A DNA stretch of 64,000 nucleotides, from the NCBI GenBank assembly GCA_951406725.2, contig OX597832.1, positions 54,126,001 through 54,190,000 of the forward strand. The letters run 5' to 3'. How positions within the stretch are numbered: the stretch's first letter is position 1; the number at the start of each line of letters is the position of its first letter. Of the stretch, positions 37,946-59,084 are shown one piece after another. Origin of the DNA: Octopus vulgaris. Lineage: Eukaryota. Position numbers and translations under genes: made by a program. The notes beneath the pieces are model-generated. The model searched no databases. It saw only the letters and a list, made by a program, of their open reading frames with translations, and was not told the origin of the DNA.

Positions 37946-39961
37946 TATTTACAAAGTGGAACAGTTTTTGAAATAGAAGATGAAAGCTTGGTTGTCGTTT
38001 CCCTCAGAATGTCTCAAACCTTATAATTTTCACAACATTTTTTGCTGTTTTTGTGGTAAATCGGGAACTGGGAGGCCCCCCACCCAAGCTGACGAACAAA
38101 GAACGTTCATGCAAATGTAAATACAGACGTGACGTATTTCACATTCAGAAGGAAGGAAGGAAGTAGGGTGTCCTTTGTAAATTTGTTCTTTATACTGAAC
38201 TGAATAAAACAGAATCCACGACGACAGCTAAATACAAATGTATGTCAAAAGTCGACGTGTTTATTGTAGTTATTTATCAGCGTGCCTGCACATGCGCACA
38301 CACGCACACACATAGGCACGCATAGATATAAGACAAAATAATAAGTGTTAGTATTTACAAAGTGGAACAGTTTTTGAGAAAGAAGATGAAAGTTTGGTAG
38401 TCGTTTCCCTCAGAATGTCTCAAACCTTGTAATTTTCACAACATTTTTTTGCTGTTTTTGTTGTAAATCGGGAACTGGAAGAACTGGAAGCCCCCAAAGC
38501 TGACAGACTGACAGACGGACAGATGGACAGATGGATAGATAGATAGATAGATAGATAGATAGATAGATAGATAGATAGATAGAGACAGACAGATAGACAG
38601 ACAGACAATCAGATAGATAGATAGATAGATAGATACATAGATAGACAGACAGACAGACAGACAGACAGACAGACAGACAGACGGACTGACAGACAGACAG
38701 ACAGACAGATAGCAGTGTTTCTTCTAGTGTCACACGCTCACACATAGACAAACACACGTAGTTACGCAGGCACGCACACGCTCATACACACAGAGACACA
38801 TATAGACAGATATAGCCACACACACACACACAGGAACACACAGACACACAGACACACATAGATACATATACAAGCACACACGCGCATACACATAGACTTT
38901 CTCTCTTTCTCTCACACACACATAGACATATACGCACTAACACAGACACACGCGCGCACACACACGCTCGCACATAGACATACACATACATAGACACACA
39001 CACACACGCATATACATAGACTCCCTTAGAACACATCACCATACACAGACTGACACAAGCACACACAAACACACGTACACGCACACACACACATACACAC
39101 GTGCGCGTGCTTACACACACACACATACAAACACAAACACCCACACACACACACACAAACACACACACACACAAACACACACACATACAAACACACACAC
39201 TCAAACACACACACACACCAACACACACTTACAAACACAAACACCCATAAACACACACACACAAACACATACACACACAAGCACACGCACATACACAAGC
39301 ACATACAAACACACACATACACTCATTGACACAGACAGACTCACACGATAACAACCCGTCCCATAACAGATTCCCCAGTCAGACCTAATGCTGTTCCTTC
39401 TTCGTGTATTCCCTTCCCTTCTAGTATCTAATAATTACAGGTAATTAACGCGACATCCCATCCATGTTGGTGCTATTGAGTAACCCATCCGAGGGCGGCC
39501 ACCAAACTAAATGATTCTTAATGATTCTTCCCGAAAGCGTGGGCGTGGCTGTGTTGTCAAGTAGCTTGCCTTCCTCTACCATGCAGTTCTGGGTTCAGTC
39601 CCACAGTGAGGTACCTTGGTCAAATATCTTTTATTATGGCTCCGGGTCGATCAAAGCCTTGGAAGAGAATTCGGTAAACGGAGACTGAAAGAAGCAAGTT
39701 GTATATACAAGAGGGTACTATATATATATATATATATATATATATATATATATATATATATATATATATATATATATATATATATATATATATATATATA
39801 TATATATATATATATATATATATATATATATATATATATATATATATATATATATATATATATATATATATATATATATATATATATATATATATATATA
39901 TATATATATATATATATATATATCTGGGTCAGAAGTGAGGGCTGGTGGCATTTGATAAAGC

Positions 39962-40049
39962 TACCGAATATAGCGCTGATGACGGAATTCAAACTCCCCT
40001 TTTTTTATATGTTTGTGATCCAGAAACACCGTGTTCGCTATTAACGGTA
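39962..40049 (+). ncRNA. Type-I hammerhead ribozyme motif (copy 1)
   Basis: ATAGCG-CTGATGA-[GGA..TCAAAC/GTTTG..TCC]-GAAA-CAC.GTG-TT^CGCTAT; stem I extends via TACCG/CGGTA. The base of stem II is a C-A mismatch. Confidence 0.72.
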
Positions 40050-40516
40050 AGTGTCTGAATTCGTATATTTGCCACTCCGGTTTTGTGTATGTGAGCCGCA
40101 AGGGCCTTCGTTTTTGGAATCTCCACTTATAGAAATGGAAAAAACGGTCTTTGACTGCCATTTCTAATTCCTTCGGTATGAGGCGAAACAGCTTGCTGCT
40201 AGCCAACTTATTTTTCTTTACTATATACTGAACCTTACAAAGGTCTTGACAATTATTTTGTCGTATTTACATACCGAAATTTACCGGTAAATAATTGTTG
40301 GTTACATGAAAAACCACAGGAAAATTATTTACCATTTTTATTGTATTACCATGTGGATTCCTCATTCCATTACGATTACCCAGAAGGCGCGCATGGCAGA
40401 ATTTTGGAGGGAAAATTTACGTTCCCAGTCGTTACTTGGTTTTAACATCTGCGCACTTCCCCCCACTATCTGATGTCGCTGGGTCAGAAGTGAGGGCTGG
40501 TGGCATTTGATAAAGC

Positions 40517-40604
40517 TACCGAATATAGCGCTGATGACGGAATTCAAACTCCTCTTTTTTTATATGTTTGTGATCCAGAAACACCGTGTTCGCTATTAAC
40601 GGTA
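40517..40604 (+). ncRNA. Type-I hammerhead ribozyme motif (copy 2)
   Basis: Same as 39962-40049, shifted by 555 nt; CTGATGA at 40531. Confidence 0.72.
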
Positions 40605-56711: not shown

Positions 56712-57021
56712 TTTCCGCTTCATCGGGGAATTACCTCCCTTTGCAGGTTAAGGGCACCGTGACGGTGTCGAGCCTTTCTGGTGACGTCGATGTTCGCCTG
56801 TGGCTAAATGCAACAGTAACACCCCCACCACCCTGCCCTGTCCCTAGCCATATTCAGATGGCTTTAGTCCCTTATGTTATCGAGCAGTTACTGTCTATAT
56901 CCCTTTTAGAGAATTATTATTGCTTTCGAACAGATTTTCGAAATCAGCAAATGTATTTTGCTTGAAAATCTATATAAGAAAATCCTGCAGAGAGAGAATT
57001 CGTCGAGGAAGCGGAGGCCTA

Positions 57022-57071
57022 CCACACGCCGATGATAGGCAATACACCTTGAAACCATGGTCCGTGTGTGG
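57022..57071 (+). ncRNA. Minimal type-I hammerhead motif, CCGATGA variant (copy 2)
   Basis: Identical to 56662-56711 at +360. Confidence 0.75.
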
Positions 57072-57882
57072 TTTCCGCTTCATCGGGGAATTACCTCCCT
57101 TTGCAGGTTAAGGGCACCGTGACGGTGTCGAGCCTTTCTGGTGACGTCGATGTTCGCCTGCGGCTAAATGCAACAGTAACACCCCCACCACCCTGCCCTG
57201 TCCCTAGCCATATTCAGATGGCTTTAGTCCCTATGTTATATATATATATATATTCTTTTACGTTTTGAAATTTCCAGTCATTGGACTGCGGCCATACTGG
57301 AGGGCTGCATTGAAGAGTTTATTTAATCGAACATAATAAACTCCATTGCATATTGTTTTTTGAAAGTCTGCGACTTATTCTATCGGACTCTTTAGTCGAA
57401 CCGCTAAGTTACGTTCACCTACACAAACCATTTCCGGTTGACAAGCATATGATTGGGAAGTGAGGAACACAGACACAAAGACACAGAGTATTAAGGGCCT
57501 AAAGACCCTAAATACTCTCAGTCATCCCTTGACACACACACACCAGGGGTGTACTGAGCCGTTGGTAAATCGGGCAGTGCTCGAGCGCCCGAAAATCTGA
57601 GGGGTGCACACGCTACATTTTAACTCTCTTTGATATCAATCCAACGGGGCCCGGTAAACAATTGTGCTTGAAGGCCCTTAATACTTTCAGTCCGCTCCTC
57701 ACACACACACACACACACACACACACACACACACACACACGAGACACGCGCACACATACACACACCACACAACACACGCACACATACACATACACGCGCA
57801 TGCACGCACAGACATAAATATACACGATCGGCTTCGATACAGTTTCCGTTTGCTAAATTCACTCACAAGGCATTGGTCGACC

Positions 57883-59084
57883 AAATTTTTGAATACTATA
57901 GTCAAAAATTTAGTTAAAAATATTAGTAAGAGGATTTCTAGCCTCTCATCTAATGAGGACATCTTCAATAGCGTTGCCCCAGTTTACAATAAAGCTTTAA
58001 AAGATAGTGGTTTTAGCGAAAAAATAAAATATACACCTATCAATAAGGAAAAGGAATAATAGAAATAGGAAGGTCATCTGGTTTACGCCCCCTTACTCAC
58101 CCGAGGTGGCCTTCAATATAGGTAAATATTTCCTAGCACTGATAGATAGACATTTTCCAGTTAACCATGCTTATAGGAAACTCTTCAATAGACACAATTT
58201 AAAAATTAGTTTTAGTTCAACTACCAATTTTAAAAACATAATCAATCATAACATACAAAAAACACAAGAAGAAAACAGCTGTTCATGCAGGAATAAAGAA
58301 TTGTGCCCGCTAAATGGAGCTTGCATGTCCAAGACCATCATATATGAAGCTACCGTAAACTCTATAACCACTAAAGACACCGTTTCGACGAAGAAATACG
58401 TGGGCCTGACAGAGGGTAATTTCAAGGCCAGGTTCAATAACCACACTTTGAGCTTTAGGCACTGGAACAAAAGAAAAGCGACACAATTATCCAATCATAT
58501 TTGGTCTTTAAGAGATAAAGGTGTCGATTATAACATACAATGGAAGATTTTGGCCAGATGTAAGCCCTATACTAACGGCAGCGGAAGGTGCGGTTTATGC
58601 GACATGGAGAGATGGCTTATCTGGAAAAGCAGCTTAGACCCTACCACATGTCTAAATACAAGGACAGAGCTTTTCGGATCATGCCCACATGTGACTAAAT
58701 TTCTGTTACGTTTTTGGTCCCCTAAAGAAAACGGATAGAACATGCTTTCTGTGTTATGTCCCAAGAAGATTTTATATATTTTTATATATTTTTATGTATT
58801 TTTATATAATTTTTATGACGAAAAATGCGAGCGATGTATAAGTACGCAGGCAAAGCAGAGTTATAACAGAGTAATTTCCCTTCATTTTTAACGGTATTTT
58901 TTCATAACGTTTTCAAATAGCCAGATAACCGAAGAGATGGTGTTGTGGATTTCCACTTCGGCATCTGAAACTCAGAGTTTTATCTTGACTACCGAGTAAT
59001 GTAACATATTGTATAGATAAATTTCCTCTATTTACATAATATTGAGGTCTCTTTCTTTCTTTTGTTATCTTACCGTTTTATCAA
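57883..59084 (+). mobile_element. 5'-truncated Penelope-like retroelement (RT-thumb/linker + GIY-YIG endonuclease + 3' pLTR)
   Basis: NISKRISSLSSNEDIFN..Y.KALKDSG, a frameshift near 58050, then KVIWFTPPYS, CSCRNKELCPLNGAC, IIY..YVGLT..FKARFNNH, T.LSNHIW, CGLC..E, LNTRTE..C.H; stop at 58738; ends in (TA)n. Confidence 0.92.
58923..58985 (+). ncRNA. Hammerhead motif in the Penelope-like 3' pLTR (CCGAAGA variant)
   Basis: AGATAA-CCGAAGA-GATG..GTGGA/TCCAC..CATC-T-GAAA-CTC.GAG-TT^TTATCT. Confidence 0.65.

What the first reader, a model, noticed from the sequence alone, without database searches (positions are those of the whole stretch)
39924..59084. Hammerhead/Penelope ecosystem concentrated in (TA)n microsatellites
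Seen: within ~19 kb there are about a dozen hammerhead or hammerhead-like motifs from at least seven distinct sequence contexts (39976, 40531, 50846-, 52325-, 52409, 52819, 52906, 54021-, 55227-, 56031, 56669, 57029, 58929). Nearly all belong to short inserts bounded by (TA)n, often nested in the central microsatellite of SINE family A, and they appear as tandems or palindromes. Inference: many ribozyme-bearing non-coding RNAs parasitise a Penelope-like RT/GIY-YIG that favours (TA)n, with SINE-borne microsatellites supplying the landing sites. This would be a layered system that ordinary repeat annotation hides as low-complexity DNA.
Basis: partly seen in the sequence, partly recalled or inferred. 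Interest (0 to 1): 0.72.

Follow-up and report, generated by a model that had tools for sequence, protein, structure and literature searches.

The report
Penelope ribozyme ends crowding TA repeats
Most of the ribozyme-shaped motifs here are real and sit beside TA repeats; four families are cut-off ends of protein-coding Penelope-like jumping genes and two are non-coding tandem repeats likely copied by the same enzymes, all of known kinds, and they show no preference for SINE repeats.

Summary
Of 13 listed motifs, 8 are complete type I hammerheads, 1 is an intact minimal variant, 2 are decayed and 2 are broken pieces; they belong to nine families. Shuffles give about 0.01 per region, and 188 of 205 3' ends of the five young families scored abut (TA)n against 5.5% background. 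Four families (C, F, H: Hydra clade; D: Neptune-type) are terminal-repeat fragments of coding Penelope-like elements. Only A (555 nt) and G (360 nt) are non-coding tandem retrozyme-like units; their hammerhead anatomy and two-armed insertions match Hydra elements, but no partner was found by a shared 3' end. SINE microsatellites are not preferred (16 of 181 inserts vs 34 of 352 arrays, P = 0.88). The phenomenon is genome-wide (about 22 strict hammerheads per Mb) with about 2.7-fold local clustering. Hydra (TA)n targeting, tails and retrozymes are published, and this scan noted the same system on other DNA of this genome. Open points: fixed variant cores (U4C, C3U, A6U) and a hint that insertions lose one flank. 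Cleavage is untested.

The parts
39719..39923 (.). (TA)n array left of element A; it follows the 5' half of a SINE (about 39540-39701)
39924..40777 (+). Family A: 1.55 head-to-tail copies of a 555-nt non-coding unit, (TA)n on both sides, 3' end at unit position 304
   Evidence: longest open frame of the tripled unit 101 aa
39970..40041 (+). Type I hammerhead of A (stem I ATAGCG/CGCTAT, CUGAUGA, 40-nt stem-loop II, stem III ACAC-C-GUGU, predicted cut after 40035)
   Evidence: compensated stem I in sister families
40525..40596 (+). Second hammerhead of A
40898..41035 (-).
50727..50960 (-). Family B: decayed copy of an old, abundant family with a minimal hammerhead-like motif (family core CUGUNGA, A6U); 3' end at (CA)n/(TA)n; right border uncertain; coding status unresolved
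52225..52380 (-). Family I, left piece: only the GAAAC...GUA half of the motif (52325-)
52380..52617 (+). Family C: terminal-repeat fragment of a coding Hydra-clade element, hammerhead at 52409 with 59-nt stem-loop II, distal 3' end at (TA)n
   Evidence: L114, L115
52770..52876 (+). Family I, right piece: CUGUUGA core, stem II internally deleted (52819)
52877..53018 (+). Family C, second fragment, hammerhead at 52906, proximal 3' end at TA-rich tract
53930..54146 (-). Family D: last 217 nt of the ~1-kb terminal repeat of a 6.2-kb coding Neptune-type element; minimal hammerhead with CCGACGA core (54021-); (TA)n on both sides, inside the head of a SINE
55113..55447 (.). Family E: head-to-head copy of an old family (about 85% identity) with decayed minimal hammerhead (55227-); coding status unresolved
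55970..56160 (+). Family F: fold-back terminal-repeat fragment of a coding Hydra-clade element; hammerhead at 56031 with 4-bp stem III and 8-nt loop; (TA)n on both sides
   Evidence: 97.7% to the repeat in front of the ORF in L381, L383, L406
56232..57239 (+). Family G: short inverted arm (ends at unit 169) plus 2.3 copies of a 360-nt non-coding unit (ends at unit 125); hammerheads with CCGAUGA core at 56669 and 57029; (TA)n on both sides
57899..59084 (+). Family H: 5'-truncated Hydra-clade element (end of RT, CxCx5C linker, GIY-YIG, frame broken near 58040), 3' UTR with CCGAAGA hammerhead at 58929, 3' end at (TA)n before a SINE 3' half
47114..47560 (+). Intact copy of the SINE with central (TA)n(TG)n, used as the reference for the nesting test; carries no insert

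Best explanation
This stretch is a local pile-up of 5'-truncated ends of several coding Penelope-like elements and of two non-coding hammerhead tandem repeats, lodged at (TA)n arrays, the non-coding ones likely copied by a Hydra-clade enzyme. Shown: family structure, coding links of C, D, F and H, TA adjacency, two fixed 3' ends per family with one used by each arm of an inverted insert, local clustering, no SINE preference. From established PLE biology (Craig 2021; Frangieh 2024): the GIY-YIG nicks AT-rich DNA, the RT starts inside the RNA at two sites, and early termination leaves short hammerhead-bearing stubs. Inferred: both nicked strands of one (TA)n array prime on one RNA, each from a different start site, giving tail-out palindromes; A and G RNAs (multimers or circles cut and closed by dimeric hammerheads) are templates in trans for a Hydra RT; each insertion leaves (TA)n on both sides and so seeds the next, which explains the clustering. 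Self-cleavage itself is untested.
For: Coding links: H has 717-aa frames with RWK, DKT, CxCx5C, no CCHH, CxxC and CxH (Hydra definition); C and F repeats run into ORFs of the same type; D bounds a 6.2-kb element with DKG, CX4CxxC linker and cysteines inside GIY-YIG. A and G: head-to-tail arrays of up to about 10 units, 92-99% identical, no ORF over 101 aa. Tail-out inverted inserts pair the two fixed ends in G 25/25, C 7/7, F 29/29, H 6/7, A 5/13 (all 13 have one fixed end); Neptune-type D has 0 of 30 inverted; position-ordered G sample 18/19. A and G hammerheads have the stem III and flanking unpaired bases of the Hydra rows in Craig File S2. Selection on the fold: two compensated stem I pairs between G and its 357-nt sister, 98.7% of cells paired; four different paired stems I in the A superfamily, found through a downstream block. 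Clustering: 36 other-family hammerheads in 595,800 flank bases vs 13 in 599,900 random bases.
Against: No coding element shares a 3' end with A or G among the loci held (the search covered families C, D, F, H and one more Hydra family, not all PLEs of the genome). 5' ends pile only weakly at the predicted cut: G 4 of 97 within 2 nt (1.35 expected, P = 0.047), A 1 of 39. G, H and D carry U4C, known to lower activity in vitro; 8 of 9 Xenopus retrozyme dimers did not cleave in vitro. The covariation rests on two related subfamilies, so it counts few events. Most family loci are the best-scoring, youngest copies. B, E and I were not linked to an ORF.
Confidence: 0.8

Rival explanations
1. One reading: most families are non-coding parasites of one Penelope-like enzyme, and SINE-borne microsatellites supply the landing sites.
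For: A and G are non-coding tandem units; the A superfamily has several further unit types of 547-644 nt. Some inserts do sit in a SINE centre with both halves kept (L102, L118, L194, L305). An A-type insert is carried inside the 3' UTR of F elements.
Against: C, D, F, H are ends of coding elements. SINE-centre adjacency 16/181 vs 34/352 arrays, P = 0.88; 10/188 ends vs 85/1154 array sides.
Confidence: 0.07
2. The elements patch breaks at (TA)n arrays: the RT/EN joins two non-adjacent arrays (or adds TA itself), so insertion usually deletes or rearranges the flank and the flanking (TA)n is partly a product, not only a target.
For: Where an insert touches a SINE half, the matching half lies on the other side in 5 of 16 cases vs 24 of 34 for insert-free arrays (P = 0.014). 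D at 53930 has (TA)44 and (TA)13 inside the SINE head, where other SINE copies have no array. 5'-truncated ends also often end in (TA)n (both sides in G 35/56, F 29/30).
Against: Small numbers; the first, stricter count (2/15) miscalled two cases; stacked inserts or later array instability can separate the halves; only one clear case of TA at a non-TA site among 131 inserts tested for empty sites. The one biochemical study shows nicking of existing AT-rich DNA.
Confidence: 0.2
3. A and G are satellites born from a PLE terminal repeat and amplified at DNA level; the hammerheads are inactive passengers.
For: Li et al. discuss local amplification from pLTRs; weakened cores; no RNA holder on record.
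Against: Copies are dispersed on all large contigs at 99% identity, 5'-truncated at random and 3'-ended at two fixed sites next to (TA)n, which is a reverse-transcription footprint; stems are compensated.
Confidence: 0.08
4. The motifs are chance matches in AT-rich, repeat-rich DNA.
For: Two of the 13 listed sites are only half or broken motifs, two are decayed; Rfam finds none.
Against: 1 hit in 100 shuffles vs 7 observed; conserved family position and compensated stems.
Confidence: 0.01

Closest known systems
Hydra clade of Penelope-like elements, including Hydra-1_Obim of Octopus bimaculoides (Craig et al. 2021, PMC8557442; seen: outline, sections 3, 10, 11, passages, parts of supplement Files S1/S2)
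   Same: RWK, DKT, CxCx5C linker, no CCHH, CxxC and CxH, short ORF, (TA)n insertion, canonical-like hammerhead with 4-bp palindromic stem III; the first 44 residues of H match Hydra-1_Obim at 28 positions (read by eye).
   Different: At least four distinct young families in one genome (H, C, F and a 727-aa family with about 45 open copies among 150 listed); H has a U4C core whereas all File S2 rows are CUGA; tails of 44-119 nt rather than 30-40.
Metazoan non-LTR retrozymes (Cervera and de la Pena 2020, PMC7229834, passages; Li, Clavereau and Pollet 2026, 10.64898/2026.07.22.740005, parts 1-3 of 5)
   Same: Non-coding tandem units with one type I hammerhead each, palindromic stem III for dimers, GC 40-47%, strongly self-paired circular fold (z -4.9 and -3.5), unit sizes within the 51-972 bp range, PLE relationship proposed.
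   Different: Insertion footprint (two fixed ends, tail-out inversion, (TA)n) points to a Hydra-type mobiliser; variant cores are fixed in G (U4C) and its sister (C3U); expression, circles and cleavage not shown; no pLTR homologue found.
Neptune-type PLEs with minimal hammerheads (Cervera and de la Pena 2014, PMC4209133, parts 1-2 of 4)
   Same: D: CX2-5CxxC linker, cysteines within GIY-YIG, direct pLTRs, minimal motif with unpaired base before stem II and GAAACGU stem III.
   Different: U4C in D; A6U fixed in the related family B; Neptune vs Nematis not separated by a tree here.
Two-site internal RT initiation and the PLE 'tail' (Frangieh et al. 2024, PMC11167929, parts 1-2 of 4; Arkhipova et al. 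2013, PMC3846280, passages)
   Same: Two fixed 3' ends per family; extension on one arm of inverted inserts.
   Different: Here the pairing is near-strict (one arm per site) and extends to non-coding units; in vitro the two strands showed no difference in start site.
Non-autonomous Chlamys PLEs such as MRC1 and Chlamys-N4 (PMC8557442 section 10; PMC9977147 passages)
   Same: Non-coding head-to-tail PLE passengers inserting in microsatellites.
   Different: Those share 3' ends with their autonomous partner and mostly lack hammerheads.

Membership tests
Type I hammerhead ribozyme | CUGANGA, GAAA and NUH around three paired stems | tested here: met
   A, C, F canonical; G and H with U4C. B, E, I in the window are decayed or broken.
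Type I hammerhead ribozyme | Covariation in stems | tested here: met
   Two double changes in G stem I (two subfamilies only); four stem I variants in the A superfamily.
Type I hammerhead ribozyme | Self-cleavage | not testable with these tools
   Only a weak excess of 5' ends at the predicted G cut (4 of 97).
Hydra-clade PLE (families H, C, F) | RWK motif, DKG changed to DKT | tested here: met
   H: RMRWK, SDKT; C: RFRW, ADKT; F: RIRWR, LDKT.
Hydra-clade PLE (families H, C, F) | CxCx5C linker; C-terminal GIY-YIG without CCHH; CxxC and CxH at the end | tested here: met
   Read in H and F frames; C frames are broken but keep the linker. Pfam GIY-YIG only E = 0.013, below cut-off.
Hydra-clade PLE (families H, C, F) | (TA)n insertion and hammerhead in the terminal repeat | tested here: met
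Hydra-clade PLE (families H, C, F) | Placement in the Hydra clade on an RT tree | not tested
   No tree built; motif match and by-eye comparison with Hydra-1_Obim only.
Neptune-type PLE (family D) | DKG, CX2-5CxxC linker, CCHH-type cysteines in GIY-YIG, pLTRs | tested here: met
Neptune-type PLE (family D) | Neptune rather than Nematis on an RT tree | not tested
   No tree built.
Non-LTR retrozyme (families A, G) | Tandem units each with a type I hammerhead | tested here: met
Non-LTR retrozyme (families A, G) | No coding capacity | tested here: met
   Longest frames 101 aa (A) and 90 aa (G) over tripled units; no ORF follows any copy held.
Non-LTR retrozyme (families A, G) | Expressed as unit-length circular RNA | not testable with these tools
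   No raw RNA reads were offered.
Non-LTR retrozyme (families A, G) | Homology to the pLTR of an autonomous PLE | tested here: inconclusive
   None among five coding families held; the genome holds more.

The most novel reading that the evidence does not exclude
A Hydra-type RT/endonuclease dimer reads one RNA, coding or a hammerhead circle, from two fixed start sites at once, one for each cut strand, and often joins two non-adjacent (TA)n arrays, so that tens of thousands of ribozyme-tipped patches mark deletions across this genome; several families have fixed attenuated cores (U4C, C3U, A6U) as a tuned, protein-assisted switch.
Probability: 0.2. Interest if true: 0.68.

Novelty: new member of a known kind. 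Interest (0 to 1): 0.36.

Why it matters
It gives a young, high-copy natural system for an open question: how PLE enzymes copy retrozymes and build inverted, tailed insertions. G (99% identical, fixed ends at 125 and 169) and intact Hydra ORFs in the same genome allow a direct in vitro test. Extrapolated from a 0.6-Mb sample, the genome holds some 60,000 strict hammerheads (13 hits, so roughly 30,000-100,000), which Rfam misses and a recent octopus repeat annotation does not mention in its main text. The SINE layer adds nothing.

Tried and rejected
Rfam scan: no hammerhead family hit, only low-complexity miRNA/snoRNA matches. SINE preference: rejected. Shared 3' end between A or G and a coding element: not found by blastn and an nhmmer profile of the A block; the block in F 3' UTRs is an antisense insert, not a shared end. 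The 16-mer used to count the A superfamily also hits an unrelated repeat (17 of the first 30 hits are A-type), so 9,200 overstates it. Sequencing runs: no RNA holder listed; contigs of four coded runs hold the whole G unit and its unit-to-unit joint, which tandem DNA also gives, so this is no evidence of expression; its loose ends only led me to the 357-nt sister family. Enrichment of 5' ends at the cut: weak. Empty-site search resolved few of 131 inserts. The strict both-halves count was replaced after inspection by a looser rule applied to both sets. The A-type sample for that test was not enlarged. A Naiad origin was rejected because the endonuclease is C-terminal in all ORFs read. The idea that RNA editing made U4C was not pursued (it is T-to-C on the ribozyme strand).
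Full report
Setting. The window is G000:C19:54126001-54190000 of a 2.8-Gb genome in 227 contigs. It is likely an octopus: the coding element at 57.9-59.1 kb closely resembles Hydra-1_Obim. The region is rich in (TA)n: 8% of its bases vs 3% in an evenly spaced 0.6-Mb genome sample, 25 arrays in 19 kb.

Are the motifs real? A descriptor scan finds complete type I hammerheads at 39976, 40531, 52409, 52906, 56031, 56669 and 57029 and at 58929 (missed by the stricter scan because of an extra base at stem II). 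One hit appeared in 100 dinucleotide shuffles of the microsatellite-free region; the genome sample gave 13 hits in 599,900 bases and its shuffle none. 54021- is a minimal-type motif conserved in its young family. 50846- and 55227- are decayed copies of old families. 52325- and 52819 are two broken pieces of one family I, whose fuller copies have a long stem II and a CUGUUGA core. So 9 of 13 sites are intact motifs, from nine families in all. Rfam found none. Selection on the fold is seen between G and a 357-nt sister family (stem I A-U to G-C and C-G to U-A; 98.7% of cells paired; loop III stays palindromic in some copies) and in the A superfamily, where hammerheads lie 101-122 nt upstream of a shared block with four different paired stems I. 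These are few independent events.

What the families are. H (57899-59084) is a 5'-truncated coding element; copies are 98-99% identical, L015 and L029 hold 717-aa frames, 20 of 30 loci end at (TA)n-type repeats, 7 run on into the next unit and 3 were not located. It has RWK, DKT, CxCx5C, no CCHH, and terminal CxxC/CxH, the definition of the Hydra clade, which is reported to insert in (TA)n and to carry hammerheads. C (52380-52617, 52877-53018) runs into a Hydra-type ORF in L114 and follows its endonuclease in L115. F (55970-56160) is 97.7% identical to the repeat in front of a Hydra-type ORF (722 aa in L419, 40% identical to H). D (53930-54146) is the tip of the ~1-kb direct repeat of a 6.2-kb element with DKG, a CX4CxxC linker and cysteines inside GIY-YIG, that is Neptune-type. 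Only A (555 nt) and G (360 nt) are non-coding: dispersed head-to-tail arrays, 92-99% identical, no frame over 101 aa. A 19-mer of G has 2,047 exact matches (control 0); a 16-mer of A has 9,200 (control 2), of which 17 of the first 30 are A-type, with units of 547-644 nt. B, E and I were not linked to an ORF.

TA and SINEs. 3' ends abut (TA)4 in A 31/36, G 26/26, C 38/42, F 57/63, H 36/38, E 8/40, against 5.5% for random positions; D has TA at an end in 25 of 28 inserts. Unselected hammerheads of the genome sample have (TA)4 within 350 nt downstream in 11 of 13 cases vs 28%. SINE centres are not preferred: 10 of 188 ends vs 85 of 1,154 array sides; 16 of 181 inserts vs 34 of 352 arrays, P = 0.88. 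In the window only A and H touch a SINE-centre array, on one side each; F and G lie between two SINE 3' tails; D lies in a SINE head.

Local or genome-wide? Strict density is 21.7 per Mb genome-wide, plus about 13 per Mb of one minimal-type 11-mer (8 in 0.6 Mb). The region holds 5 strict events where 0.35 are expected (P = 3e-5 for a fixed window, but the genome has about 146,000 such windows and this one was picked). Around other family copies, hammerheads of other families occur at 60 per Mb (36 raw, 33 unique, one of them own-family, in 595,800 bases, overlapping loci not merged), about 2.7 times background. The pile-up is the upper tail of a general clustering.

Mechanism. Each Hydra-type family has two fixed 3' ends (G 125/169, A 304/423, C about 90-100 nt apart, F 68, H about 72), and tail-out inverted inserts use one for each arm: G 25/25, C 7/7, F 29/29, H 6/7, A 5/13 with one fixed end in all 13; D has 0 of 30 inverted and one end; a position-ordered G sample gives 18/19. 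For C, F and H the distal end coincides with the end of my query. A tail on one end only is a described PLE trait, and an anole PLE starts RT at two internal sites that bound the tail, nicks both strands of AT-rich DNA, is predicted to be a dimer and has a protein-assisted hammerhead. I infer that both nicked strands of a (TA)n array prime on one RNA, one from each site. A and G share this footprint and the Hydra hammerhead anatomy (4-bp palindromic stem III, unpaired bases flanking stem II; File S2), and differ from Neptune-type D, so a Hydra enzyme is the likely mobiliser. No partner was found by shared 3' end. Their circular monomers fold well (z -4.9, -3.5). 5' ends fall within 2 nt of the predicted cut in 4 of 97 G ends (P = 0.047) and 1 of 39 A ends: at most a weak sign of cleavage in vivo.

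Loose ends. Variant cores are fixed in several families: U4C in G (all 136 anchored matches), H, D and an A sister; C3U in the G sister; A6U in B (32 of 55 parsed motifs) and I. U4C is known from a viroid, weak in vitro but sufficient in vivo; A6C is known and A6U does not occur in that paper's text; all File S2 rows are CUGA. Where an insert touches a SINE half, the other half is in place in 5 of 16 cases vs 24 of 34 for plain arrays (P = 0.014; a stricter first count gave 2/15 but miscalled two). This hints at flank loss on insertion but is a small sample, open to stacked inserts.

Comparison and novelty. Hydra PLEs in octopus, their (TA)n bias and hammerheads (PMC8557442), minimal PLE hammerheads (PMC4209133), metazoan retrozymes and their proposed PLE origin (PMC7229834; 10.64898/2026.07.22.740005) and non-autonomous PLEs are all published. 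Cephalopod retrozymes did not turn up in the library: 'hammerhead, octopus, Penelope' and 'retrozyme, cephalopod' gave only Craig et al. as relevant, and an octopus repeat annotation has no 'hammerhead' or 'ribozyme' in its main text. Subscription journals, Repbase and Dfam were not searchable, and the supplements of the bioRxiv preprint were not seen. Papers seen: PMC8557442 (outline, sections 3, 10, 11, passages, supplement parts), the preprint (parts 1-3 of 5), PMC11167929 and PMC4209133 (parts 1-2 of 4), PMC7229834, PMC3088659, PMC3846280, PMC13282606, PMC9977147 (passages). Earlier notes of this scan report the 360-nt family, the two-site pairing and similar pile-ups on other pieces of this genome; the 555-nt unit had no look-alike note. 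Verdict: new members of known kinds; the SINE layer is not supported; interest 0.36.

Noticed in passing
L419:3759-3838, L420:1009-1090, L421:3843-3923: An A-superfamily insert lies antisense inside the microsatellite-rich 3' UTR of three coding F elements, so a retrozyme piece is carried as cargo by an autonomous Hydra element.
   Followed up: partly
L407-L417: A further very young Hydra family with a 727-aa frame (about 45 open copies among 150 listed) and a small canonical hammerhead; not present in the window; a candidate driver.
   Followed up: partly
L297-L316: Sister of G with a 357-nt unit, about 85% identical, UUGACGA core (C3U) and the same two 3' ends.
   Followed up: yes
L321-L346: A superfamily of 547-644-nt tandem units with different hammerheads that share a ~60-nt block just before the proximal 3' end, a candidate RT-binding site.
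   Followed up: partly
window 53592-54800: Large old inverted duplication of a SINE and its flank around D; D has (TA)44 and (TA)13 at a SINE position that lacks an array in other copies.
   Followed up: partly
window 56024-56030 and F copies: F inverts almost always at one palindrome (AAGCTT) just upstream of the hammerhead core; 29 of 30 copies are fold-backs.
   Followed up: partly
window 40898-41035 (-): Another Hydra-like 3' end with half a hammerhead, stacked in the array right of A.
   Followed up: partly
window 31756-32309, 37148-37948, 48100-48471: A second SINE-like family forms tandem arrays of 182-184-bp units.
   Followed up: no
window 24001-24292 (+): Probable last coding exon of a host gene, ending in a serine-rich acidic tract; not identified.
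   Followed up: no
window 18622-18972 (-) and 44940-45474: Fragments that look like Tc1/mariner transposase (label recalled, frames).
   Followed up: no
L211-L216: The D element has a 3-kb (CA)-rich 3' UTR and a frame change between RT and endonuclease in several copies.
   Followed up: no
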